64,000 bases of DNA from Candidatus Zixiibacteriota bacterium (lineage in GTDB: Bacteria; Electryoneota; B3-LCP). The stretch is from the NCBI GenBank assembly GCA_003599535.1, contig QZKQ01000083.1:14584-78583 (forward strand). The letters run 5' to 3'. Both the position numbers and the translations under genes were made by a program. The stretch's first letter is position 1. Every line of letters begins with the position of its first letter. Below are positions 2,392 to 61,717 of this stretch, one piece after another. The notes under the pieces are model-generated. The model ran no database searches and was not told where the DNA came from. It saw nothing but the letters and a program-made list of their open reading frames with translations.

Positions 2392-2424
2392 AAATTATGA
2401 ATGATGAATGTATGAATTGTGAAT

Positions 2425-2455: not shown

Positions 2456-2703
2456 GTCAGGATTGAAGCGCAGCGGTCCCTGGCGGTGATCCCTTTAACG
2501 TTGCCGCCAGGATTGAAGCGGGGTTAACGAGCGCAGGATCTTTTACCGGGGCGGCGAATCCACCATGCACCTCCAAACTCTACCCGTCCAGATAGCGATT
2601 CCTGGCGGCGTATTGTCGGAATCACGGATCCAACGGATGAAACGGATGGAACGGATTTTACCCCTCGTCGGAACCGCAGATTTGCGCAGATTTAGCGGAT
2701 TTC
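2456..2703. repeat. Repeat-rich intergenic segment. It holds a partial inverted copy of the dispersed element found at 56217-56524, plus short direct repeats.
   Basis: The reverse complement of 2600-2700 (AAATCCGCTAAATCTGCGCAAATCTGCGGTTCCGACGAGGGG...ATCCGT) aligns over about 80 nt with 56388-56465 (TAATCTGCTAAATCTGCGGAAATCTGCGATTCTGACGAGGGATCC...ATCCGT). CAGGATTGAAGCG occurs twice, and ACGGATG/ACGGATT is triplicated. Confidence 0.5.
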
Positions 2704-2750: not shown

Positions 2751-3441
2751 TTATTTCAGCAGCACCACTTTCCTCACCTGCGACCCATCCCCCGCCTCCA
2801 GCCTCACCAGGTACACCCCCGAAGGCAATCCCGACCCGTCGAACGTCACCTCGTGCGTTCCCGCCGGATACCACGCCTCCCTTGCCTGTAGGGGCGGGCC
2901 GACGTGGCCGCCCCCGGGGGCGACCACATAGGGTCGCCCCTACATTCCGTCCTCCCGTATCGAACACCGCCAGCCGCACCATCCCCGCCGCCGGCAGATC
3001 GAAGCGCAGGGCGGTGGAGGGGTTGAAGGGGTTGGGATGGACCCGGAGAGTAGGTTGGTCCGGGATGGGCGATTTATCCTCCGGCTTGACAGCCACGGAC
3101 TGATGATAGCTCTCATCCCCCAGCAAGACATGCACCCGGCCCCAGGAATGGTGCAGCAGGAATTGATAATAATTCGGCTCCCCCGCCACCAGATCATCAA
3201 TGCCGTCGCCGTTGAGGTCGCCAACATTGTCCAATCCCGAACCCAGTCCGGCGTCAAAATACAAACCATACATAATACAGTCTACTGACTCATTCAAACC
3301 TGCCTGGGTGCCCAGACCAGCTTGCCCCTTTCCCGCGGGGACCACTGCGTGGCAGGAGTCGCGCCACGCAGTGGCCCTTCGGGGCAACTCCCGTAGCGGA
3401 ACACCACCCGCCTCCTGTTTTTCATCCCGCAGGGATGACAT
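2751..3441 (-). pseudogene. Frameshifted remnant of an FG-GAP / T9SS-CTD secreted protein
   Basis: Frame A (ORF 2704..3441) encodes an FG-GAP motif (GDLNGDGIDDLVAG) and the start of a T9SS CTD (VHPNPFNPSTALRFDLP...LAVFDTGGR). The canonical CTD end (THEVTFDGSGLPSGVYLVRLEAGDGSQVRKVVLLK, stop at 2751-2753) is in a different frame. There is no signal peptide, so the N-terminus is missing. Confidence 0.55.
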
Positions 3442-3920
3442 GTGACGGGTGGCCTGGCTTGATCTGCATCACAGTCCTATCTTGCGGCAGAAAGTCCGAC
3501 GCAGATCAAGCCGGGTTTACATTATCCGCCATCCCTAGGCTTTTAATATAGACCCGGCTTGACCCGCCCATGAGCGTTGTTGATGTTTCGGATTCACTGC
3601 CGTGCGGGTCAAGCCAGGCCACCCAACATCGGCTGACGGAGGGGTTACACCCACTTCAGTGGGTAGTATGATAGTAGCCCAGGAATTCATTCCTGGGGGA
3701 GACGAGGCAGTCCCGGCCATTCCCTTCGGGCCCCCTGAAGGGGCAAGCTGGCCGGGCCACACACCGCGTAATCCACGTAATCCGTGGTTCAGACAATCCC
3801 CGGCGGGCCTCGCAATGACACTGCGGGCAGGGTCAAGCCCAGCCCCTACGCGTCGGACGACATGGATACCTGTTACATGGACACGAGACACAAAGCCCGG
3901 ATCCTACGATCCGGGCTTTG
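3442..3920. repeat. Structured non-coding region downstream of tRNA-Leu, with nested inverted repeats and hairpins
   Basis: Nested inverted repeats: outer GGCCTGGCTTGA...TCAAGCCAGGCC (about 3461/3617), GGCTTGATCTGC...GCAGATCAAGCC, and CCCGGCTTGACCCGC...GCGGGTCAAGCC. Hairpins: acccacTTCAgtgggt, cccaggaatTCattcctggg, and a 3888-3920 acacaaagcccggatc...gatccgggctttgtgt terminator-like stem. It also contains the 24-nt repeat CCGGCGGGCCTCGCAATGACACTG. Confidence 0.5.
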
Positions 3921-3923
3921 TGT

Positions 3924-4010
3924 TGGTGCCGGAGGCCGGATTTGAACCGGCACGCCCTTTCGAGCGCCACCCCCTCAAGATGGTGTGTCTGCCAATTTCA
4001 CCACTCCGGC
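3924..4010 (-). tRNA. tRNA-Leu (anticodon GAG)
   Basis: The reverse complement is GCCGGAGTGGTGAAATTGGCAGACACACCATCTTGAGGGGGTGGCGCTCGAAAGGGCGTGCCGGTTCAAATCCGGCCTCCGGCACCA. It has a 7-bp acceptor stem, a GTTCAAATC T-loop, a long variable arm, anticodon loop TTGAGGG, and a 3' CCA. Confidence 0.85.
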
Positions 4011-4087
4011 AGTCGTGCGCATGTGCCGCCCCGGATCCGGGTGCACCGGATCCGGGCGGTATCTGCAAAGGCGAGGGATATTCCGGG

Positions 4088-8978: not shown

Positions 8979-9368
8979 TCACAGAAAAGTGATGTTTCCG
9001 TGATCAGCGACACCCTCGAAATCGTGATCCAGCGTCACTAGTTGCAGGCCATGCATTTCTGCGATTTTAAACTGATACGCGTCATCAAAATCCAATGACC
9101 ATCGCTCATTCAATGAAGCCAGTTCCAAGCCATCTTCCGGCTTCAACCGCAGGATACCTACTTGATCGCGGATATCATTGATGAACCGGGTGAATAACTC
9201 GGATTTATGCAAGCGGAACAACACCACGCCGACAGAATGAAGCGAAAAATCGGACATAAACAGGTTATCCTGGTGCGTCGCCAGGAACTCTTTGCAAATA
9301 TCCTTCTTCTCCTGTGCCAGCAGGACTTCAAGAAAAATATTGGTGTCGGCCAGGTACATTACCGCCAC
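8979..9368 (-). CDS. vapC: PIN-domain toxin (VapC-like)
   Basis: N-terminal YLADTNIFLE (first PIN acidic residue). Conserved D/E positions and a C-terminal LDHDF motif. 129 aa. Confidence 0.75.
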   Translation of the reverse strand: MAVMYLADTNIFLEVLLAQEKKDICKEFLATHQDNLFMSDFSLHSVGVVLFRLHKSELFTRFINDIRDQVGILRLKPEDGLELASLNERWSLDFDDAYQFKIAEMHGLQLVTLDHDFEGVADHGNITFL

Positions 9369-9589
9369 TCCGTGGCTTTATGCTGTAATTCCACTGAAGT
9401 GAACCGGTCCTTGTATTCCTCCAGTCCCCCTTCCCAATCGAAGCGGAAACCTCGCTTGCCAGCTTGTGTACCGTACTTCTGCAATAAATACTCTATATAA
9501 TCCAGGGCCTCACGGCGGGCCTGTTCGGGCAACTGTGCCAACTTTTTCTGGATAATTTCACTGGTCATGAGAGTCACTCGATATTTCAT
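9359..9589 (-). CDS. Putative antitoxin partner of VapC (DUF2281-like)
   Basis: 76 aa. Overlaps the vapC start by 10 nt. The C-terminal RGFRFDWEGGLEEY resembles the DUF2281 antitoxin family. Confidence 0.55.
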   Translation of the reverse strand: MKYRVTLMTSEIIQKKLAQLPEQARREALDYIEYLLQKYGTQAGKRGFRFDWEGGLEEYKDRFTSVELQHKATEWR

Positions 9590-27104: not shown

Positions 27105-27325
27105 GGTTTTGCGGAATATACCTGGGACAGGCCGGATTCGTGATGATCCGGCCTGTGGTGTTTTAAGGGGGGATGGCCCGGCCAGCCATTGCCGGGCCAC
27201 CAACCGACACAAAAGGGTGAACAACAGCGAACAGAACACCCTTATTATCGGTCATTCGTCATTCGTCATTTCCCGGATCCCTCCCCCCCTCTTCCCCGTT
27301 TAATCATAAATCCCCCCTAATACGC

Positions 27326-28934: not shown

Positions 28935-29131
28935 AACGTGCCCACGTGACCACGTAACCACGTAACCACGTAACACGTAATATGGAAGCGTGAAATACGG
29001 ATGGATCCATGTCCAAACTGCTGCGCCGCATGCTCCTGAAAATCTACGTGGTCGGGTTTACACAACGAGACCGCGACTGACTGCCGATAAACCGTAATCG
29101 TTGACTTTATAACCCATCACGAGGAGAGAGC

Positions 29132-30472: not shown

Positions 30473-30558
30473 AGCACCCTTAACGAGAAATCCGACGGGC
30501 GGATCGTACGATCCGCCCGTTTTTTTCCATGTGCCTGTTAACTCGTCCTGTTAGAGTG

Positions 30559-30592
30559 ATGGAAAGATGGAAAGATTAAAAGATGGAAAGAT
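30559..30592. repeat. Tandem octamer repeat (GATGGAAA)n
   Basis: gatggaaagatggaaagattaaaagatggaaagatt. Confidence 0.6.
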
Positions 30593-30594
30593 TA

Positions 30595-48867: not shown

Positions 48868-49064
48868 GGGAGATCCGGGTTATTATGCATGAGGTGGGAT
48901 AACGGCCGCCTTTTCGTTCCCGGGAATGCATTCCCGGAATTCGATCATCTACGTAACCGGCTGCTACAGGACGACCCCTTCAGGGTCGTGATGATTGGAG
49001 GCTATTCCGTACCGTAGGTTAAAACCTACGGCTACTAAAGGATCACCCCTTCGGGGTGATATTC

Positions 49065-49128
49065 TGGCTCCTGACTCCTGGCTCCTGACTCCTGGCTCCT
49101 GACTCCGGACTCCTGACTCCTGACTCCT
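49065..49128. repeat. Tandem repeat (CTGGCTCCTGACTC)n, about 4.5 copies
   Basis: ctggctcctgactc x3, then ccggactcctgactc, then ctgactcc. Lies directly 3' of the 49127..50401 gene. Confidence 0.7.
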
Positions 49129-50401
49129 ATGTTTTCTGTTCCTTCTTTCGCGCGGCGGGAAAGAGCACGTTGTTCAGGATCAGCCGGTAGCCGGGGGAAT
49201 TGGGGTAGAGGTCGAGCTGGGTGGGGGGATCGCCCACCTGGTGGCGGTAGTCTTCCGGGTCGTGGCCGCCGTAGTAGGTGAAGGTCCCCTTGCCATAGTC
49301 GCCGTGCAGGTACTTCACTTCGTCGGACCCTTCCACCTGCCCCATGATGGTGATTCCCTTCTTGACCAGCGACTTCTTGAAGGCCGTGGTCTGCCCCATG
49401 AAACCTTTGACCACGGAAGTGTGATCCTGGGTCAGCATGGTGGGCACGGGATCGTACTTGGCGGAGAATTCGAACAGGGTGAAGTAGTCCAGCATGTCGC
49501 CGCGAGGGGACATGCCGGTGCGGGGCGTGGTATCAATATCGGAGAATTCGTACACCAGCGGGTCGGGGATCAGGGAGAAGTTCTCGAAGGCGAAGGTCTG
49601 GGAAAAATCCAGCTTCTGCTGAGCCTCAGGGTCGGCCGGGGTGCCGTCGAACACCGCCGCGCAGATGTCCACCCCCTGGGCGGCCAGGGCGATGTCGTAG
49701 CTGTCGGTGGCCGAGCACATGGCGAACATGAAGCCGCCCTGCCCCACGTAATCCTTGATGGCCGCGGCCACGGCCTTCTTCTCTTCCTGCACCGTCCGGT
49801 AGCCCAGCTTGCGGGCCAGCTCTTCGTACACGGCCTGCTGCTCGACGTACCACTTGGCCCCGCGGTACAGGGCGTAGAACTTGCCGTACTGCCCGGTGAA
49901 ATCCTCATGGTGCAGGTGCAGCCAGTCGTACTGCAGGAGCTTGCCGCTCAGCACTTCCTCGTCGAACACCTTATCGTAGGGGATTTCGGCGTATTCCAGC
50001 GCCAGAGTGACGGCGTCGTCCCAGGGCTGGAAGTTGGGCGGGACGTAGACGGCCACCTTGGGGGCCTTCTCCAGCATGACCCGCTCCATGTTGGCCGATT
50101 CGATCTCGCCGTAGATGGCGGCCGCGTCGCCGGCGCTGATCACCTCGTAGGTCACGCCCCGCAGCCGGCAGACCCGCTCCAGGGCCGGCGTGGCCGGCAC
50201 CATGAAACTGCCGCTGCGGTAGTTCAACAGCCACTCGACATTGACGCCCTGCTCCAGGACCCAATAGGCCACCCCGTAGGCCTTCAGGTGATTGCTCTGC
50301 TCCAGGTCCATGGGGACGAGGAGGCTCTGGGCAGAGGCCGCCGGGGCCAGGGTGAAGAGCAAAGCGAATAATAGGATGCGATTATATAGGGTTGTTCTCA
50401 T
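49127..50401 (-). CDS. Secreted hypothetical protein
   Basis: Signal peptide MRTTLYNRILLFALLFTLAPAASAQS. 424 aa. No family recognised. Confidence 0.45.
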   Translation of the reverse strand: MRTTLYNRILLFALLFTLAPAASAQSLLVPMDLEQSNHLKAYGVAYWVLEQGVNVEWLLNYRSGSFMVPATPALERVCRLRGVTYEVISAGDAAAIYGEIESANMERVMLEKAPKVAVYVPPNFQPWDDAVTLALEYAEIPYDKVFDEEVLSGKLLQYDWLHLHHEDFTGQYGKFYALYRGAKWYVEQQAVYEELARKLGYRTVQEEKKAVAAAIKDYVGQGGFMFAMCSATDSYDIALAAQGVDICAAVFDGTPADPEAQQKLDFSQTFAFENFSLIPDPLVYEFSDIDTTPRTGMSPRGDMLDYFTLFEFSAKYDPVPTMLTQDHTSVVKGFMGQTTAFKKSLVKKGITIMGQVEGSDEVKYLHGDYGKGTFTYYGGHDPEDYRHQVGDPPTQLDLYPNSPGYRLILNNVLFPAARKKEQKT

Positions 50402-50555
50402 GGTTGTTAATTCATTAAATGCTGTGATCCGTGCCCTACTTGAGCCCCCCTTAATCCCCCCTTAAGAAGGGGGGAAGCATGGCTTCGAGGCACCCCCCTT
50501 CTTAAGGGGGGCTGGGGGGGATCTGAGAAGGGCAGCCGATCACTTTCGCTTACCC

Positions 50556-53922: not shown

Positions 53923-55259
53923 GGGGAAAACCTCTCACTCGATTCCGCCTCGCCGGCCGCGACCGGGCGGGCAAATAGATCGTACTCCTGGGCCCGCTCG
54001 ATCACCACTTCCATCCGGGTGCCGGGGGGATAGTTCCCGGGAATGAGAATCTCGCCGTCCAGTTCCGGCAGTTCGGACCGGCCGTGCGCCACGCTGTAAC
54101 CGGTCTCCGCTTCGTAGAAATCAACCAGGACTTCGTCCCGGGAACCGACCCGGGAGCGGTTGTATTCCAGGGAAATGTCCATTTGCACGTCCAGAAGGTC
54201 GCGGCGGCGGCGCGCCCGGGTGCGGGGCGATACCTGGCCCGGCAGCGCGGCCGCGGGGGTGCCTTCCTGGGGGGAGAATTCGAAGCAGCCCAGGCGCTCG
54301 AAACGCGCCTCCTCGATGAAGTCGAGCAACTCGCGGAAGTCGCGGGGCGACTCTCCCGGGAAGCCCACGATAATGGAGGTACGGAGCACAGCGTTCGGCA
54401 TATGGCGCCGGGCCGCGGCAATCAAGTCCAGCAGTTGACGGCGGCTGCCGCCTCGCCCCATGGCCTTCAGAATGCGCTGCGAGGCGTGCTCGACGGGCAG
54501 GTCCAGGTAGCGGGCCAGTTTCGGCTGGGTGGCCCAGAATTCCCACAGCTCCTCGCCGCAGGCCGGCGGGTGGAGGTAGAGGGGCCGCACCCAGGCGATC
54601 CCTTCCACGCCGCAGAGCCGTTCCAGCAGATCCATGAGCGGACGGTTGCCCCGCCCCAGGCCCAGGTCGTGGCCGTACGAATTCAACTCCTGCGCCACGG
54701 GCAGGAGTTCCAGTACACCGCGCCGGGCCAGGGCAGCCGCCTCTTCCACGATTTCTTCCGGCGGGCGGCTGGCGTAGCGGCCCCTTAGGGAGGGAATGAC
54801 GCAGTAGGAGCAGCCCCGGTTGCAGCCGTCGGCGAGGCGCAGGTAGGCGTAGTGGCCGGGGGTTTCGAGGTCCCGCTCCAGGTAGGGATTGCCGGTAATG
54901 GAGGCCCGGCCGTCGGCCAGGACGCGATCCAGCAGGGCACGCCACTGTCCCACGCCGTAGAAGGCATCCACTTCGGGCAGCTCGGCTTCCAGCTCGCGGC
55001 CGAAGCGCTGCGGCAGACAACCGAAAACGAAGAGCCGCCGGCACTGGCCTTCGGTCTTCATGCGGGCGGCGTCCAGGATGGCGTCCAGAGCCTCCTCCTG
55101 GGCTGCCTGGATGAAGGCGCAGGTGTTGACCACGATGGTGTCGGCGGCGCGGGGATCGGCGGTGATTTCCACCCCCCGCTTGATTCCCCACCCCCGAACC
55201 AGCTCGCCTTCGACCTGGTTCTTGGCGCAACCCAGGTTGTGCAGGTAAAGCCGGATCAT
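53919..55259 (-). CDS. rimO: Ribosomal protein S12 methylthiotransferase RimO (radical SAM, MiaB-like)
   Basis: Start at MIRLYLHNLGCAKNQVEGE, with ATGA overlap with the ftsY stop. Radical-SAM CxxxCxxC (CNRGCSYC). C-terminal TRAM domain. The long GC-rich upstream ORF extension was rejected. Confidence 0.8.
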   Translation of the reverse strand: MIRLYLHNLGCAKNQVEGELVRGWGIKRGVEITADPRAADTIVVNTCAFIQAAQEEALDAILDAARMKTEGQCRRLFVFGCLPQRFGRELEAELPEVDAFYGVGQWRALLDRVLADGRASITGNPYLERDLETPGHYAYLRLADGCNRGCSYCVIPSLRGRYASRPPEEIVEEAAALARRGVLELLPVAQELNSYGHDLGLGRGNRPLMDLLERLCGVEGIAWVRPLYLHPPACGEELWEFWATQPKLARYLDLPVEHASQRILKAMGRGGSRRQLLDLIAAARRHMPNAVLRTSIIVGFPGESPRDFRELLDFIEEARFERLGCFEFSPQEGTPAAALPGQVSPRTRARRRRDLLDVQMDISLEYNRSRVGSRDEVLVDFYEAETGYSVAHGRSELPELDGEILIPGNYPPGTRMEVVIERAQEYDLFARPVAAGEAESSERFSP

Positions 55260-56197
55260 GCCCGGGCCTCGGGCTCGCCCAGCAGCACGCGGGCGAAGGC
55301 TTCCGGGTCGAACTCGTCCAGGTCGTCCATCTTTTCGCCCAGCCCGATGAAGCGCACCGGAAGATTCAGCTCGTGGCACACGGAGATGACCGCGCCGCCC
55401 TTGGCGGTGCCGTCCAGCTTGGCCACTACCAGTCCGGTGACGCCGCTGATATCCTGGAATACCCGGGCCTGCTGCACCATGTTCTGGCCGGTGTTGGCGT
55501 CCAGCACCAGCAGGACCTCGTGTGGGGCGTCCGCGTCGAGTTTCTTCAGCACCCGGCCGATCTTGGACAGTTCCTGCATCAGGTTGGCCTTGTTGTGCAG
55601 CCGGCCGGCGGTGTCTATGATGAGCAGGTCTACCCCGCGGGCCTTGGCTGCCTGCAGGGCGTCGAAGGCTACGGCGGCGGGGTCGGCACCGGCCCCCTGG
55701 CTGATGACAGGCAGCCCCAGCCGGTCGCCCCACATGGAAAGCTGTTCGCTGGCCGCGGCGCGGAAGGTATCCCCGGCGGCCAGGAGCACCCGCCGGCCGT
55801 CCTGCTGAAACTTGCGGGCCAGTTTGGCGATGGTCGTGGTCTTGCCGCTGCCGTTGACCCCCACCACCAGGATCACGGCGGGCCGGGCGGAGAGGTTCAG
55901 ACCGTTTTCCCGGGCGGCCGGCGCCATCATTTCGGCGATCACTTCCCCCAGCAGGGCGCGGACGTTGGCGGCGTTGTCGTCGCTCATGGCGGAGGCGCGG
56001 CGCACCTTGTCGCGCAGCGCCTGGAGGATATCCTCGGCCGTTTGCACACCCACGTCAGCGGTCAGCAACGCCTCTTCCAATTCGGCGTAGAGGTCTTCGT
56101 CAATGCGGGGATGGGAGGAGAGCACCCGGCGGATGCTGTCACCAAAGGCCTGCTGGGTCTTGACCAGCTTCTCTTTTAGTTTTCCGAAGAGGGACAT
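55256..56197 (-). CDS. ftsY: Signal recognition particle receptor FtsY
   Basis: NG domain with GVNGSGKTTTIAKLA, DTAGR, and GTPase motifs. Confidence 0.9.
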   Translation of the reverse strand: MSLFGKLKEKLVKTQQAFGDSIRRVLSSHPRIDEDLYAELEEALLTADVGVQTAEDILQALRDKVRRASAMSDDNAANVRALLGEVIAEMMAPAARENGLNLSARPAVILVVGVNGSGKTTTIAKLARKFQQDGRRVLLAAGDTFRAAASEQLSMWGDRLGLPVISQGAGADPAAVAFDALQAAKARGVDLLIIDTAGRLHNKANLMQELSKIGRVLKKLDADAPHEVLLVLDANTGQNMVQQARVFQDISGVTGLVVAKLDGTAKGGAVISVCHELNLPVRFIGLGEKMDDLDEFDPEAFARVLLGEPEARA

Positions 56198-56216
56198 TCA
56201 GGATCTCTGATTTGGA

Positions 56217-56524
56217 GCCACAGATGAACACAGATAAAGAAGCCAGAAACCAGAATTCAGGAGCCAGGAGCACACAATCCAGAAGGGATTGCATCCGTCG
56301 GCCGACGGATAGCCGGGGTGTGCACCCCCCGGAGGAGGACGATTCATCTGCCTCCCCTTGCGACCCTGACGGGGTCGAACATCATCAGCGTAATCTGCTA
56401 AATCTGCGGAAATCTGCGATTCTGACGAGGGATCCCAATCCGTATAACCCGTTCGATCGGTGATATGGTCGCGCGGGTATAACCATGGGTGACATTATCT
56501 GTGCTTATCTGTGCAATCTGTGGC
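56217..56524. mobile_element. MITE-like dispersed repeat element (about 308 bp) with imperfect terminal inverted repeats
   Basis: Left end GCCACAGATGAACACAGATAAAG. Right end reverse-complements to GCCACAGATTGCACAGATAAGCACAGATAA. Internal CCGTCGGCCGACGG palindrome and (AAATCTGCG)x3. An internal 80-nt core is shared with 2600-2700. The internal 83-aa ORF was judged non-coding. Confidence 0.4.
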
Positions 56525-56531
56525 TAAATGG

Positions 56532-57206
56532 TTACTTCCATACCCGCACCGCCCACTGGTGGAACCAGGCGTCACTCCTGGCCCGGGCGCGGGGATCGCC
56601 GCCGAAGACCGGATCGGCATCGTTGTAGGGCCGGTGGCGGGAATCATAATTTTTACGCGCGAAGGGGGCCGCCAGTTGCAGAATCTCATCCCGGCTGAAG
56701 TAGTGGTGCGGAACCCCCGCCTCCAGACCCTGGTGGTGCACGAAGGTATTGGGCTCGATTTCCTCGCCTTCGCCCCGGCGGACGTCTTCCACCCCGATCA
56801 GGGTGAAGAAGAAGGGGGCGCCGGGCTTGAGCAGGCGGCGCGCCTCGGCCACGGCGGCGAAGGTGTCGGCCAGGACGGCGTGATTCATGACGCCCAGCGA
56901 GAGGATGCCGTCGAAGAATTCCTCGGGGTAAGGCTGCCGGGTCATATCCGACAGGGAGAGGCGGGCGCTCAGGCCCTCCATTTCCAGCCACTGCCGGGCC
57001 ACGGCCAGGCCCTGCGGGGCGACGTCGGTGCCGTGAACTTCGAAGCCGGCTCCGGCCAGGTTCACCAGGTGCCGTCCGGCGCCGCAGCCCAGGTCCAGAA
57101 CCCGGGCTCCGGGAGGCACGGCGCGGGCGAATTCGAGCGCCAGCGGGTCCGGCTCGCGGATCACCTTGGCGGGATTGTGAAACAGTTGATTCCAGTCAGC
57201 GCACAT
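56532..57206 (-). CDS. Class I SAM-dependent methyltransferase
   Basis: Motif I VLDLGCGAGRH. Start tentatively at MCADWNQLF, since the longer ORF-track start would overlap nadK. Confidence 0.65.
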   Translation of the reverse strand: MCADWNQLFHNPAKVIREPDPLALEFARAVPPGARVLDLGCGAGRHLVNLAGAGFEVHGTDVAPQGLAVARQWLEMEGLSARLSLSDMTRQPYPEEFFDGILSLGVMNHAVLADTFAAVAEARRLLKPGAPFFFTLIGVEDVRRGEGEEIEPNTFVHHQGLEAGVPHHYFSRDEILQLAAPFARKNYDSRHRPYNDADPVFGGDPRARARSDAWFHQWAVRVWK

Positions 57207-57226
57207 GGAAGGGGAAACCGGGGAGA

Positions 57227-58087
57227 TTACGATGATGCGGGGCCATCGCCCCACTTCAGCTTTTCGCGCAGGACGTCGTAGAAGTACTTGTCGTGGAACA
57301 GCACCAGTTTGACCACGTAGTCGGCCTTGTGAATGATGATGCGGTCGCCCACCCGGAGGTGGCGTTCCACCTGGCCGTCGGTGGACAGGATCATGCGGTC
57401 GTGGCCCCCCTGGACCAGCGCTTCAATGCCCTGGTCGCAGCCGATCAGCATGGGACGGTCGGTCAGGGTGTGGGGGGAGATGGGATTGACGATCAGGACA
57501 TTCAGGGCCGGTTCCACGAGGGGACCGCCGGTGGACAGGGAGTAGGCGGTGGAGCCGGTGGGAGTGGCCACGATCAGGCCGTCGCCGGTGTAGGTGTTCA
57601 GGTAGCGGCCGCCGATGGTGGTGCGAATGCGCACCACGCGGGTGTAGGCGCCCTTCTCGATGACCACGTCATTCAGGGCGTAATAGACGTCCGGAGAGCC
57701 GTTGACGCGGCAGGCCAGCACCATGCGCTCTTCAACACGGTAGGCGCCGGACAGCAGCTCCTCGACGCGGGGATAGAGGCTGGAGAGCGAGATTTCCGCC
57801 AGGTAGCCCAGGCCGCCCAGGTTGACGCCCAGGATGGGGGTCTGGCGGCGGCCGACCTTGCGGGCGGTGGACAGAAGCGTGCCATCCCCACCAAAGGAGA
57901 GCACCATGTCGCACCGTTCCACCAACTGCTCGATGGGCAGGAAGCGATCCGGCTGGACACAGAGATTCTCCCGCAGGTCGTCGGCAGCCAGGACCGAAGC
58001 CCCTTTACTTTCCAGCCAGGCGAGAAACGGAGGGAGGACTTCCCAGATCTGTTCTTTCTGGGTGTTGGCGATGATGCCGAATATCAT
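57227..58087 (-). CDS. nadK: NAD kinase
   Basis: GGDGT motif (FGGDGTLL), NxGxLGFL-like motif (NLGGLGYL), and DG..V.TP..S.A.S. Start at MIFGIIANT by frame arithmetic from the ORF track. Confidence 0.8.
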   Translation of the reverse strand: MIFGIIANTQKEQIWEVLPPFLAWLESKGASVLAADDLRENLCVQPDRFLPIEQLVERCDMVLSFGGDGTLLSTARKVGRRQTPILGVNLGGLGYLAEISLSSLYPRVEELLSGAYRVEERMVLACRVNGSPDVYYALNDVVIEKGAYTRVVRIRTTIGGRYLNTYTGDGLIVATPTGSTAYSLSTGGPLVEPALNVLIVNPISPHTLTDRPMLIGCDQGIEALVQGGHDRMILSTDGQVERHLRVGDRIIIHKADYVVKLVLFHDKYFYDVLREKLKWGDGPASS

Positions 58088-60017: not shown

Positions 60018-60069
60018 CCAAACCTCTGGTTATAGCCGTAATCCCTTCTATCTCACCCGCGGAGCGGCA

Positions 60070-60273
60070 TCAGAGTTCCTCGGGGGGAAGAAGAACTTTC
60101 AGCTTCTGTTCGGCGGATTCGAGCTTCTCCAGGCAAAAGCCGATCAACGCCCGGCCCTCTTCATACAGGGCCAGGGAGTCCTCCAGCGAAGGAGTGTTCC
60201 CTTCCAGGGCGCGCACGATCTCTTCCAGGCGCTTCAGGGCGCCTTCAAAGCTTTTTTCGGCCGGTGATTCCAT
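60070..60273 (-). CDS. xseB: Exodeoxyribonuclease VII small subunit
   Basis: 67 aa. Pattern FEEALKRLEEIV..LE......LE.SL..YE.G. Sits directly upstream of xseA. Confidence 0.8.
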   Translation of the reverse strand: MESPAEKSFEGALKRLEEIVRALEGNTPSLEDSLALYEEGRALIGFCLEKLESAEQKLKVLLPPEEL

Positions 60274-60290
60274 GTTATGGAGAGAGAAAA

Positions 60291-61493
60291 TCAGTCGTGA
60301 TGTGTGGAGGTCACGCGGGCTGTGGCGCCGCCGCGATGGAACGCGACCTCAATTTCGTCCTCGGCCTGCAGCCGGGCGGCGTCGGTCAGGGGTTGGGGAT
60401 CTCCGGCGCGCCGCACGATGGCATAGCCTCGCTCCAGGATGGCCCGGGGGTCGAGGCAGTCCAGGCGGGCCCCCAGGTGCTGCAGAGCTTCCCGCCGGCG
60501 TTCCAGCAGCAGCCGGACGCCCCGGTCCAGGCGGCGGGAGATTTCGTCCACCCGCTGGCTCTCTTCGCGCCAGCGGCCGGTCATGGCGTGGGCCAGCACC
60601 GGGGCGGCGCGATCGGTCAACCAGCGGCGTTTTTCCGCCAGGCGCAGGGTCACCGCCCGCTGCGCGCGCAGGGCCGCCTCTTCCAGCCGGGCCCGCAGGG
60701 CATGGCGGTCGGGCAGGCACATTTCGGCGGCGGCCGACGGAGTGGGAGCACGCAGATCCGCGGCCAGGTCCGACAGGGTGACATCCACTTCATGGCCCAC
60801 GGCGCTGACGATGGGAGTGCGGCACTCGGCCACGGCCCGCACCACCGGCGCCTCGTTGAAGGCCCACAGATCTTCCGGAGAACCTCCCCCCCGCCCCACG
60901 ATGATCACCTGGGGCCAGCCGCTCTGGTCCAGGGCGCGGATGGCGGCGGCAATCTCGGCGGCGGCGCCAGGGCCCTGCACGTTGGCCGGAGCCAGGTGGA
61001 ATTCCACCCAGGGGGCGCGTTCGCGGGCCACCTTCAGGATATCCTGCAGGGCGGCGCCTCCGGGGCTGGTGACCAGACCGACACGTTCCGGCAGCGGCGG
61101 CAGGGGAATTTTGCGCTCGAGCGCAAACAGGCCTTCAGCGGCCAGTTTTTGCTTGAGCGCTTCGAAGGCCTGGGCCAGCTCCCCCAGCCCGGCGGGCCGG
61201 AGGTCGTAACAATCGAACTGGTAGCGCCCGCCCCGCTCGTAGACCACCACCCGGCCGAAGGCGACCACCAGGTCGCCCACCTGGGGCGTGTAGTTCAGTT
61301 CCCGGGCCCGGCCACGCCAGAGCACGCATGAAAGCTGGGTCTGGTCGTCGCACAGGGTGAAGTAAGAATGTCCCGAGCGGTGGCTGGTGAACTGGGACAC
61401 TTCCCCCCGGATCCACAGGGCCGGCAGACCGCCTTCCAGCACGATCTTGATGCGCGAGGTCAATTCGCTGATGGACAGAGGCGTACGATCCAT
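60291..61493 (-). CDS. xseA: Exodeoxyribonuclease VII large subunit
   Basis: N-terminal OB-fold (ISELT..IK..LE....LWIRGEVS) and a central catalytic domain. About 400 aa. Confidence 0.85.
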   Translation of the reverse strand: MDRTPLSISELTSRIKIVLEGGLPALWIRGEVSQFTSHRSGHSYFTLCDDQTQLSCVLWRGRARELNYTPQVGDLVVAFGRVVVYERGGRYQFDCYDLRPAGLGELAQAFEALKQKLAAEGLFALERKIPLPPLPERVGLVTSPGGAALQDILKVARERAPWVEFHLAPANVQGPGAAAEIAAAIRALDQSGWPQVIIVGRGGGSPEDLWAFNEAPVVRAVAECRTPIVSAVGHEVDVTLSDLAADLRAPTPSAAAEMCLPDRHALRARLEEAALRAQRAVTLRLAEKRRWLTDRAAPVLAHAMTGRWREESQRVDEISRRLDRGVRLLLERRREALQHLGARLDCLDPRAILERGYAIVRRAGDPQPLTDAARLQAEDEIEVAFHRGGATARVTSTHHD

Positions 61494-61717
61494 TACCAGC
61501 GTCTCCAGAAGTACAGGAGCAGGGACAGGAGCACGCTGAGAAGAATGCTTAGGCCCAGGGGGAAGTATACCGTCACCGGTCCGTTGCGCCAGCGCAACGG
61601 TTCCAGCAATTTAGCCAGAAAAGGGAAACGCGGAGCCAGGTAGAGAAGCGCTCCGGTCAGGATGAGGAGCGCCCCCGCCAGGATCAGCAGTTTCCCCCAG
61701 TTCTGAGGTTGCGTCAT
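61493..61717 (-). CDS. Small membrane protein (DUF2905-like)
   Basis: 74 aa with two TM helices (GKLLILAGALLILTGALLYL ... LSILLSVLLSLLLYF). Confidence 0.45.
   Translation of the reverse strand: MTQPQNWGKLLILAGALLILTGALLYLAPRFPFLAKLLEPLRWRNGPVTVYFPLGLSILLSVLLSLLLYFWRRW

What the first reader, a model, noticed from the sequence alone, without database searches (positions are those of the whole stretch)
56217..56524. MITE-like dispersed element between ftsY and a methyltransferase, with a second partial copy near coaE
The 330-nt ftsY/methyltransferase spacer is a full element. It has imperfect 22-30 nt terminal inverted repeats built from CACAGAT(A/G) units, an internal 14-nt palindrome and (AAATCTGCG)x3. 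About 80 nt of its core is present in inverted orientation at 2600-2700. The element is non-coding, because the 83-aa ORF inside it is low-complexity.

Candidate miniature transposable element or REP-like regulatory module.
Basis: seen in the sequence. Interest (0 to 1): 0.55.

Follow-up and report, generated by a model that had tools for sequence, protein, structure and literature searches.

The report
Gene-less repeat-array palindrome upstream of ftsY
The spacer in front of ftsY is filled by a non-coding palindrome whose ends are inverted runs of a 7-base motif; the same end design brackets a widespread nuclease gene family (GxxExxY) in many bacterial phyla, so it looks like a gene-less relative of an apparently undescribed class of selfish DNA, not a classical miniature transposon.

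Summary
Bases 56209-56529 form a non-coding block with significant terminal inverted repeats built from CACAGAT units. About 80 nt of it recurs, inverted, at 2621-2703 (61/75 identical).

It fails two MITE criteria: there is no target-site duplication, and the second copy has no ends. No transposase lies in the window.

Relatives with the same gene order have only 28-175 nt of unrelated sequence at this position, so the block is lineage-specific.

All its repeats are variants of one motif, C-R-C-n-R-A-K, at 8-10-nt spacing. Inverted arrays of this motif occur in more than 120 genomes of many phyla. In an independent sample, such arrays bracket 63% of GxxExxY (TIGR04256, PD-(D/E)XK) nuclease genes, against 1% of neighbouring ORFs. 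Gene-less copies are multi-copy and nested in Gemmatirosa and also occur in Bacteroides.

Locus A keeps the right half of such a nested palindrome plus the outermost left arm. Locus B is the mirror-image inner left half.

Best reading (0.5): a gene-less, partly decayed member of this array-palindrome class, analogous to REPINs with RAYT transposases. Mobility, the protein partner and any effect on ftsY are inferred, not shown. The main rival is local slippage.

The parts
56209..56240 (+). Left (ftsY-proximal) arm: ATTTGGAGC|CACAGATgaaCACAGATaaag. Two forward CACAGAT units at 10-nt spacing, with C at position -1 of the outermost unit.
   Evidence: outer-boundary signature
56238..56272 (+). Run of 7-8-nt units (GAAGCCAG AAACCAG AATTCAG GAGCCAG GAGCA). 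It is the reverse complement of the CTGGCTC/CTGACTC array at 49064-49128. Resembles cyanobacterial STRR repeats.
56274..56378 (.). Five consecutive short hairpins: AATCC-agaag-GGATT; the 18-nt perfect palindrome 56293-56310; CCGGGG..CCCCGG; GGAGG..CCTCC; CGACCC-tgac-GGGGTCG. The last resembles the hairpin at 48973.
56384..56418 (-). Innermost array of the right half: four CGCAGAT-type units read on the - strand (ATCAGCG, ATCTGCT, ATCTGCG, ATCTGCG on the + strand).
56419..56432 (-). Non-repetitive connector ATTCTGACGAGGGA, shared with locus B (CCCCTCGTCGGAA).
56433..56466 (-). Middle array of the right half: three to four degenerate ACGGAT-type units (ATCCCA, ATCCGT, ACCCGT, ATCGGT on the + strand).
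56495..56529 (-). Right (methyltransferase-proximal) arm: three CACAGAT units read on the - strand (TTATCTGTGcTTATCTGTGcAATCTGTG|GCTAAAT on the + strand).
2621..2703 (+). Locus B, the mirror-image half-element: CACGGAT + AACGGAT x3, connector CCCCTCGTCGGAA, then CGCAGATTTG, CGCAGATTTAG, CGGATTT. All units are forward. There is no outer CACAGAT arm and no inverted partner. It abuts the bidirectional terminator hairpin at 2713-2731.

Best explanation
The ftsY/methyltransferase spacer is occupied by a gene-less, partly decayed 'array palindrome'. This is a non-coding element whose ends are inverted arrays of the motif C-R-C-n-R-A-K (here CACAGAT) at roughly 10-nt spacing, with further arrays of sister motifs (ACGGAT, CGCAGAT) nested inside.

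The same architecture brackets GxxExxY (TIGR04256/PF13366) PD-(D/E)XK nuclease genes across many phyla. It also occurs without a gene, in multiple copies and nested, in isolate genomes.

Locus A keeps the whole right half and the outermost left arm of such a nested palindrome. Locus B keeps the inner left half. That is why the two loci match in inverted orientation.

Shown: the architecture; its absence from relatives; the cross-phylum class; the statistical association of the class with GxxExxY genes; conservation of the motif rather than of base pairing; the folding potential of the spacer.

Inferred: (a) the arrays are rows of binding sites for a sequence-specific protein, most plausibly a GxxExxY nuclease acting in trans, as RAYT transposases act on REPINs; (b) the element reached these two loci by copying rather than by independent slippage; (c) in the methyltransferase-ftsY transcript or as a DNA cruciform, the arms pair and close a 257-nt multi-hairpin domain that may be processed (for example by RNase III) or may stabilise or insulate the flanking cistrons.
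For: 1. The terminal inverted repeat is significant: score 29 against 13.6 +/- 2.3 in shuffles, 0 of 2000.

2. The element is lineage-specific. With NAD kinase-methyltransferase-ftsY-rimO gene order conserved, the methyltransferase-ftsY spacer is 58 nt in L001, 175 nt in L003 and 110 nt in L227. L228 and L229 lack the methyltransferase and have a 28-nt NAD kinase-ftsY spacer. None is homologous to this spacer.

My arithmetic gives about 17 expected by chance. About half are inverted pairs around a 10-100-nt loop.

4. In viral contigs the real units give 9 and 10 loci, against 1, 2 and 1 for three composition-matched controls.

5. In 80 GxxExxY loci sampled by protein alone, 43 of 65 testable loci have an inverted bracket with z >= 4. 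A bracket score of at least 28 is reached by 63% of GxxExxY genes against 1% of 71 other ORFs in the same loci (Mann-Whitney p = 2.5e-13).

6. Between the two arms, the mismatch rate is about 1% at five of the six fixed motif positions (2% at the sixth). It is 30% at position 4 and 17.8% in the linkers. Mismatches show no G-U bias: 43 G-U type, 29 A-C type, 104 other.

7. The outermost units carry a C at -1 or -2 and a T-rich -3 to -5, which inner units lack. Both window arms have the C at -1.

8. Isolate genomes show the class directly. In Bacteroides finegoldii, a GxxExxY gene is bracketed by CACAGAG-type arrays, and a gene-less CGCAGAT/CACGGAT/CACAGAT palindrome lies between pgm and thrC. 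In Gemmatirosa, a GxxExxY gene is flanked on each side by a whole gene-less palindrome; a third near-identical copy lies 8 kb away; and there are triple-nested palindromes [CGCGGAG]3[CGCAGAG]3[CACAGAG]3-loop-mirror. In Ignavibacterium, a compact cassette sits between two co-directional genes.

9. Unit class correlates with protein similarity: 56.7% identity within a class against 50.4% between classes, 0 of 2000 permutations.

10. Locus A against locus B gives 61/75 identity, including a non-repetitive connector.

11. The spacer folds better than shuffles on both strands: z = -3.5 (- strand) and -4.2 (+ strand).
Against: No GxxExxY gene or remnant lies in the 64-kb window or in either spacer. 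None of the named top GxxExxY hits is from Zixibacteria.

Only one full and one half element occur in 64 kb. The genome-wide count is unknown.

The interior is 257 nt, much longer than the 10-100-nt loops typical of gene-less copies. The inner arrays have no partner on the left side.

The ACGGAT units fit the motif only loosely (A rather than C at position 1).

The window and its relatives are full of unrelated short tandem arrays after stop codons. L001 has a single ATCCGCAG unit at the homologous spot. Local growth by slippage is therefore plausible.

The association of the arrays with GxxExxY does not show that the protein acts on them. The unit-protein correlation is confounded by host phylogeny.
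Confidence: 0.5

Rival explanations
1. Locally generated low-complexity spacer. Replication slippage and small inverted duplications grew STRR-like arrays in place. There is no mobility and no dedicated protein. The two loci resemble each other because of one old segmental copy or convergent growth of similar units.
For: Many other intergenic regions of the window carry unrelated 7-10-nt tandem arrays, several of them directly after stop codons: 2393-2424, 27251-27270, 28942-28980, 30558-30594, 49064-49128.

Relatives have different arrays in the same spacer (L227, L003). L001 has a single ATCCGCAG unit at the homologous position.

There is no target-site duplication. The second copy is only half an element.

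Cyanobacterial STRR heptamer hairpins between co-transcribed genes are a precedent (PMC2670836).
Against: Slippage does not explain why the same 7-nt motif, the same outer-boundary signature and the same inverted or nested design recur across phyla. It does not explain why real units exceed composition-matched controls 5-10 fold. It does not explain why a non-repetitive connector is shared between loci 53 kb apart.
Confidence: 0.27
2. Classical MITE: a deletion derivative of a DDE-transposase insertion sequence, with terminal inverted repeats, moved in trans and making target-site duplications.
For: The block has terminal inverted repeats of 19-30 nt, is non-coding, is small (321 nt), and is absent from the same site in relatives.
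Against: The flanks are not duplicated: GATCTCT|GATTT on the left, TAAAT|GGTTA on the right. No duplication is seen at four well-bounded GxxExxY cassettes (L188, L198, L221, L222) either.

The second copy lacks the ends. No transposase ORF lies in the window. The ends are tandem motif arrays with drifting linkers.
Confidence: 0.06
3. Cis-regulatory array: helically phased binding sites for a host transcription factor (for example an OmpR/PhoB-type regulator) or for a nucleoid protein that controls the ftsY promoter.
For: The spacing is about one helical turn (9-10 nt). The block lies directly upstream of ftsY. In the wider class, motif identity rather than pairing is conserved.
Against: No sigma-70-like promoter was found in the spacer. 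The same module sits downstream of coaE, at a convergent terminator. Across genomes the arrays lie next to unrelated genes. Relatives express ftsY from 28-175-nt spacers without it.
Confidence: 0.1
4. A structured non-coding RNA gene or riboswitch-like leader of ftsY.
For: The spacer folds significantly better than shuffles, with several GC-rich hairpins.
Against: There is no Rfam match, either at gathering thresholds or at E <= 10, and none on 18 array loci from other genomes. The folding is equally good on both strands, as expected of a DNA palindrome. Locus B does not fold better than shuffles (z = -0.3). Arm mismatches in the class are not biased toward G-U.
Confidence: 0.05

Closest known systems
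REP / REPIN elements and their RAYT (Y1) transposases (Bertels and Rainey 2011, PMC3116915; PMC3337134)
   Same: Short non-coding repeats in inverted pairs that form hairpins. Intergenic and multi-copy. No target-site duplication. The associated single-domain enzyme gene is itself flanked by the repeats: here a Gemmatirosa GxxExxY gene lies between two whole palindromes.
   Different: Each arm is a tandem array of a 7-nt motif, not a single 20-40-nt REP palindrome. There is no GTAG/CGTC tag. The associated gene is a Cas4/lambda-exonuclease-like PD-(D/E)XK nuclease, not a Y1 HUH transposase. Palindromes are nested within palindromes.
Cyanobacterial STRR (short tandemly repeated repetitive) sequences
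   Same: Short tandem units in intergenic spacers, often able to form hairpins between co-transcribed genes. Function unknown; transcript stability has been proposed (PMC2670836).
   Different: STRR units are heptamers described in filamentous cyanobacteria. Here the spacing is 8-10 nt, the motif is shared across phyla, the arrays are inverted and nested, and there is a gene association.
MITEs (for example Correia, Nezha; named from my own knowledge)
   Same: Small, non-coding, with inverted ends, and inserted in intergenic spacers.
   Different: No target-site duplication, no cognate DDE transposase, and ends made of repeated units.
Multi-site transposon ends (Tn7 TnsB sites, Mu L1-L3/R1-R3, IS21; from my own knowledge)
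   Same: Several copies of a protein-binding motif in each end, in inverted orientation, with variable linkers.
   Different: Those sites are about 20 bp and belong to large elements with DDE transposases. Here the unit is 7 nt at 8-10-nt spacing and the only associated gene encodes 125 aa.
23S rRNA intervening sequences that carry a small ORF in the loop of a long stem (from my own knowledge)
   Same: A small gene, or nothing, enclosed by a long inverted repeat and inserted inside a transcription unit. The stem is a plausible RNase III substrate.
   Different: Those are found in rRNA, their stems are not motif arrays, and the ORF family differs (PF05635).

Membership tests
MITE | Terminal inverted repeats | tested here: met
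   10/10 and 17/19 matches; score 29 against 13.6 +/- 2.3 in shuffles
MITE | Target-site duplication flanking the ends | tested here: not met
   The flanks GATCTCT|GATTT.. and ..TAAAT|GGTTA share no direct repeat
MITE | Many copies per genome with conserved ends | tested here: inconclusive
   One full and one end-less half copy in 64 kb. The source genome could not be scanned.
MITE | Cognate transposase-encoding parent element | not testable with these tools
   None in the window. The rest of the genome was not available.
REP/REPIN (RAYT-associated) | Inverted doublet of repeats forming a hairpin, with no target-site duplication | tested here: met
REP/REPIN (RAYT-associated) | GTAG or CGTC tag at the head of each REP (PMC3733652) | tested here: not met
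   The arms start AGCCACAGAT. A separate GTAG-tagged doublet does exist at 2887-2944.
REP/REPIN (RAYT-associated) | Y1 (RAYT) transposase in the genome, flanked by the repeats | tested here: inconclusive
   None in the window. A Y1_Tnp gene lies in relative L003, between xseA and xseB; its flanks were not examined.
Cyanobacterial STRR | Tandem heptamers in intergenic regions | tested here: met
   56238-56272 and 49064-49128 have period 7; the other arrays have period 9-10
Cyanobacterial STRR | Host is a filamentous cyanobacterium | tested here: not met
   The source is a Candidatus Zixiibacteriota genome assembled from a metagenome
CRCnRAK array palindromes / GxxExxY brackets (class defined here) | Two or more CRCnRAK units at 8-12-nt spacing in each arm, arms inverted | tested here: met
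   CACAGAT x2 on the left and x3 on the right
CRCnRAK array palindromes / GxxExxY brackets (class defined here) | Outermost unit preceded by C, then a T-rich stretch | tested here: met
   ATTTaGC|CACAGAT and ATTTggaGC|CACAGAT
CRCnRAK array palindromes / GxxExxY brackets (class defined here) | Nested arrays of sister motifs, mirrored on both sides | tested here: inconclusive
   The right half has three nested arrays. The left half has only the outer one. Locus B supplies the mirror image of the inner two.
CRCnRAK array palindromes / GxxExxY brackets (class defined here) | Encloses a GxxExxY gene, or one is present in the genome | tested here: not met
   No gene or remnant in the window. The rest of the genome could not be tested.

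The most novel reading that the evidence does not exclude
Inverted, often nested arrays of the motif CRCnRAK form a cross-phylum family of selfish palindromic elements. Their partner enzyme is the very large GxxExxY (TIGR04256) minimal PD-(D/E)XK nuclease family, of unknown function. The nuclease gene sits in the centre of such a palindrome. Gene-less copies spread or persist through it, with a preference for inserting into the loops of existing palindromes. This would parallel RAYT/REPIN but use a nuclease of a different fold. The window element would be a decayed gene-less member in Zixibacteria.
Probability: 0.3. Interest if true: 0.8.

Novelty: new variant of a known kind. Interest (0 to 1): 0.6.

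Why it matters
For this genome the element is a minor feature: 321 nt of extra DNA in an operon spacer that may affect how ftsY is expressed or its mRNA processed.

The wider result matters more. Here they turn out to be bracketed, specifically and across phyla, by inverted arrays of a shared 7-nt motif. Gene-less versions of these arrays are common, multi-copy and nested. That gives the protein family a testable DNA or RNA substrate. It also suggests a second REPIN-like system built on a different enzyme fold.

I found no paper that describes this in the searchable library. That does not prove it is unpublished.

Tried and rejected
- Rfam: the whole window at gathering thresholds, the spacer at E <= 10, and 18 array loci from other genomes. 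Nothing relevant.
- Promoter and terminator scan of the spacer: no promoter, and only one terminator-like site, on the + strand inside ftsY coding sequence.
- Locating the source contig through the exact FtsY protein: not on record.
- Metagenome scan for the locus A/B junction CCCTCGTCRGAAYCGCAGATTT: zero hits, not even the window itself. The source is therefore not in that collection and the genome-wide copy count could not be made.
- L002, the second-best FtsY hit, is an unrelated gene context.
- DnaA boxes, Fur boxes, CsrA GGA sites and Rho rut sites were considered for the units and dropped, because the sequences do not fit those consensus motifs (my own knowledge; not tested further).
- A decayed GxxExxY gene inside the spacers: no signal, even with all HMMER filters off.
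- RNA-stem selection in the brackets: not supported by the mismatch spectrum.
- Literature searches by sequence words and by family names: no description of the arrays.
- Sequence search of GxxExxY against solved structures: none. A fold search gives only a generic Cas4/lambda-exonuclease-like core.

Full report
**1. The observation**

The window comes from a Candidatus Zixiibacteriota genome assembled from a metagenome. The window's FtsY is 100% identical to a protein with that label.

On the - strand, a class I methyltransferase (56532-57254) is followed by ftsY (55256-56197). The 334 nt between them have lower G+C (0.52-0.57) than the flanking genes (0.60-0.70).

- Terminal inverted repeats: AGCCACAGAT / ATCTGTGGCT match 10/10, and CACAGATGAACACAGATAA / TTATCTGTGCTTATCTGTG match 17/19.
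- Internal palindrome: perfect and 18 nt long, at 56293-56310.
- AATCTGCG units: present at 10-nt spacing.

The inverted alignment of the two spacer ends scores 29. Shuffles give 13.6 +/- 2.3, and none of 2000 reaches 29. Eleven other intergenic gaps of the window score 10-20. The repeat extends to ATTT..AGCCACAGAT. The block therefore spans 56209-56529 and fills the spacer, apart from 11 nt before the ftsY start and 2 nt after the methyltransferase stop.

The 83-aa ORF lacks the codon-position G+C pattern of this genome's genes and has no Pfam hit.

The second locus is real. The alignment gives 61/75 identical bases plus one 8-nt indel between 56464-56390 (- strand) and 2621-2703 (+ strand). 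A 14-nt non-repetitive connector is included.

**2. Anatomy**

Nearly all repeats in the block are variants of one unit: a 7-nt core followed by 2-4 variable bases.
- Left side: two forward CACAGAT units (56219-56238).
- Right side, all in the opposite orientation: four CGCAGAT-type units (56384-56418), three to four degenerate ACGGAT-type units (56433-56466), and three CACAGAT units (56495-56522).

Between the two sides lie a run of GAGCCAG-type 7-8-mers and five short hairpins.

Locus B has four ACGGAT units, the connector, and three CGCAGAT-type units. All are forward. It has no outer arm and no inverted partner.

Clusters of this hexamer occur nowhere else in the 64 kb.

**3. Comparison with relatives**

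Five relatives, with FtsY about 70-73% identical, keep the order dxs, NAD kinase, (methyltransferase), ftsY, rimO.
- The methyltransferase-ftsY spacer is 58 nt (L001), 175 nt (L003) and 110 nt (L227).
- L228 and L229 lack the methyltransferase, and the NAD kinase-ftsY spacer is 28 nt.
- None of these spacers is homologous to the window spacer.

The block is therefore lineage-specific extra DNA.

Two cautions follow from the same comparison. L003 and L227 carry other hairpins or short tandem words at this position. L001 has a single ATCCGCAG unit just where the window has its ftsY-proximal arm.

No target-site duplication flanks the block.

**4. The units belong to a widespread class**

My arithmetic gives about 17 expected by chance. 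The hits come from Bacteroidota, Verrucomicrobiota, Planctomycetota, Chloroflexota, Nitrospirota, Gemmatimonadota, Acidobacteriota, proteobacteria, Firmicutes and cyanobacteria.

About half of the hits are inverted pairs of arrays around a 10-100-nt loop. Sister units (CACAGAT, CGCGGAT, CACGGAT, CGCTGAT) are often mixed in.

In viral contigs the two real units give 9 and 10 loci. Three composition-matched control dimers give 1, 2 and 1.

No Rfam family covers the arrays.

**5. Association with a gene family**

Among ORFs within 1.2 kb of these arrays, the family found at the most loci (five) is a protein of about 125 aa. It is a GxxExxY protein: TIGR04256 (E = 8e-43) and PF13366 (E = 2e-41). 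In those loci the gene has arrays on both sides.

To remove the sampling bias, I collected 80 GxxExxY loci from metagenomes by protein similarity alone.
- Reading their flanks shows forward arrays upstream and the reverse complement downstream. The unit differs from locus to locus: CGCAAAG, CACAGAG, CGCAGAG, CACGAAG, CGCAGAT, CACAGAT. All fit C-R-C-n-R-A-K.
- 43 of 65 testable loci have an inverted bracket with z >= 4.
- A bracket score of at least 28 is reached by 63% of GxxExxY genes against 1% of 71 other ORFs in the same loci (p = 2.5e-13).

The mismatches between the two arms are informative.
- Their rate is about 1% at five of the six fixed core positions and 2% at the sixth.
- It is 30% at core position 4 and 17.8% in the linkers.
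- There is no excess of G-U-compatible changes.

What is conserved is therefore the motif, not the pairing. This is the pattern expected of rows of protein-binding sites rather than of a selected RNA stem.

The outermost units have a C at -1 or -2 and a T-rich -3 to -5, which inner units lack. Both window arms show the C at -1.

**6. Isolate genomes**

*Bacteroides finegoldii.* The GxxExxY gene lies between radA and the next gene. It is bracketed by tcacCACAGAGgaCGCAGAGgaCACGGAG ... CTCTGTGacCTCTGTGtcCTCTGTGgtga. The same 24.8-kb record has gene-less arrays of the same type. It also has a gene-less CGCAGAT/CACGGAT/CACAGAT palindrome between pgm and thrC.

*Gemmatirosa kalamazoonensis.*
- A GxxExxY gene is flanked on each side by a complete gene-less palindrome.
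- A third near-identical copy lies 8 kb away.
- A gene-free 50-kb stretch holds nested palindromes such as [CGCGGAG]3[CGCAGAG]3[CACAGAG]3-loop-[CTCTGTG]3[CTCTGCG]3[CTCCGCG]3.
- Each of the two inner layers (CGCAGAG, CACAGAG) also occurs alone.
- Another 50-kb stretch has none, and shuffles give none.

*Ignavibacterium sp.* The cassette is wedged between two co-directional genes, with arrays abutting the start and stop codons.

*Chitinophagaceae.* A composite of heptamer arrays, ATCTGCG arrays, a 45-nt loop and the mirror image is multi-copy.

No target-site duplication is visible at four cassettes with clear boundaries.

**7. What this says about the window**

The right half of locus A is three arrays of sister motifs, all pointing the same way. 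This is what the right half of a Gemmatirosa-type nested palindrome looks like. Locus B is the mirror image of its two inner layers. The 'inverted partial copy' is therefore most simply the opposite arm of the same family. Both loci are incomplete derivatives of a symmetric parent of about 200 nt or more. This step is inference.

The shared non-repetitive connector argues for copying rather than independent slippage. The loss of the inner left arrays, the long hairpin-rich interior and the loose fit of the ACGGAT units argue that the element is old and decayed.

**8. Mechanism**

The GxxExxY model is confident (pLDDT 93.6). Its best solved-structure match is the Cas4 protein SSO0001 (probability 0.99, TM-score 0.54), followed by lambda exonuclease. 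It is a minimal PD-(D/E)XK nuclease core, and no solved relative is found by sequence.

Unit class (AAG, GAG or GAT ending) correlates with protein similarity: 56.7% against 50.4%, 0 of 2000 permutations. This fits protein-site co-evolution, but it is confounded by host relatedness.

My preferred model has three parts. The arrays are binding sites for these nucleases. Gene-less palindromes depend on them in trans, as REPINs depend on RAYTs (PMC3116915, PMC3337134). New copies tend to land in the loops of old ones. An alternative within the same class is homing, in which gene-less palindromes are the empty targets.

For the host, the block can fold (z = -3.5 and -4.2). The ftsY start then lies 11 nt from the base of a stem of about 25 bp. 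Processing or insulation of the co-transcript is plausible but untested.

**9. Rivals**

- Local slippage is the serious rival (0.27). This lineage has many unrelated arrays after stop codons.
- A classical MITE fails on target-site duplication and on the nature of its ends.
- A regulator-site array fails on its position at locus B and on the lack of a promoter.
- A structured RNA fails on Rfam, on the strand symmetry of the folding, and on the unstructured locus B.

**10. Limits**

- The source genome could not be scanned.
- No GxxExxY gene is shown for Zixibacteria.
- The chance expectation for that scan is my own arithmetic.
- The absence of literature holds only for the searchable library.

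Noticed in passing
L147-L226, L231, L232, L236, L238 (GxxExxY loci in other genomes): GxxExxY (TIGR04256/PF13366) nuclease genes are specifically bracketed by inverted arrays of CRCnRAK units: 63% against 1% of neighbouring ORFs. They often sit between co-directional genes, for example trpE/trpG in L221, radA and the next gene in B. finegoldii, and an ammonia-lyase and rmuC in Ignavibacterium.
   Followed up: yes
L233 12295-12555, 45289-45531, 9478-9584 (Gemmatirosa kalamazoonensis plasmid NZ_CP007129.1): Two- and three-level nested palindromes. Each level is made of three units of a different sister motif, always in the order CGCGGAG (outer), CGCAGAG, CACAGAG (inner). This suggests insertion into the loops of older palindromes.
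   Followed up: partly
window 49064-49128 and 48915-49060: Nine tandem heptamers (CTGACTC/CTGGCTC) begin directly after the stop codon of the - strand gene 49127-50461. Four short GC-rich hairpins follow. The reverse complement of this unit also occurs inside the ftsY spacer (56238-56272).
   Followed up: partly
window 2393-2424, 27251-27270, 28942-28980, 30558-30594: Other short tandem arrays (TGAAT-type, GTCATTC, CCACGTAA x5, GATGGAAA), several directly after stop codons or just before terminator hairpins. This looks like a general style of this genome's spacers, reminiscent of cyanobacterial STRR. Relative L227 shows the same style with different words.
   Followed up: partly
window 2887-2944: A 58-nt GTAG-tagged palindromic doublet (TGTAGGGGCGGGCC...GGTCGCCCCTACA), like a REPIN. 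It lies inside an ORF that carries FG-GAP and a type IX secretion sorting tail, splitting the tail into two reading frames. No other copy occurs in the window.
   Followed up: partly
L003 1584-2015: A relative of the source organism carries a Y1_Tnp (IS200/RAYT-type) gene between xseA and xseB. The window has no such gene at the same place (60030-61610).
   Followed up: no
window 50424-50543: A 120-nt imperfect palindrome (51-nt arms, 71% complementary) containing tandem CCCCCCTTAA units, between two co-directional - strand genes.
   Followed up: no
window 2940-4087: About 1.1 kb without a convincing gene, holding several inverted repeats built on GGCTTGA(C/T)C / G(A/G)TCAAGCC (arms at 3305-3330, 3447-3475, 3501-3582, 3596-3624, 3738-3763, 3813-3839).
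   Followed up: no
window 8979-9589: A low-G+C island (0.49) between an aldolase-like gene and a phosphofructokinase-like gene (functions read from their sequences, not checked). It encodes a PIN-domain protein (Pfam E = 3e-11) and a DUF2281 protein (E = 2e-15). It is probably an acquired toxin-antitoxin pair.
   Followed up: partly
L006, L020, L044, L062, L091, L107 (Chitinophagaceae): A multi-copy composite element: heptamer arrays, four ATCTGCG units, a partly conserved 45-nt loop (GGGAAA..TTTCCC), four CGCAGAT units, then the mirror-image heptamer arrays.
   Followed up: partly
one search hit list: Many GxxExxY genes lie on very short contigs (0.5-2 kb). This is what would be expected if the flanking arrays break metagenome assemblies.
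   Followed up: no
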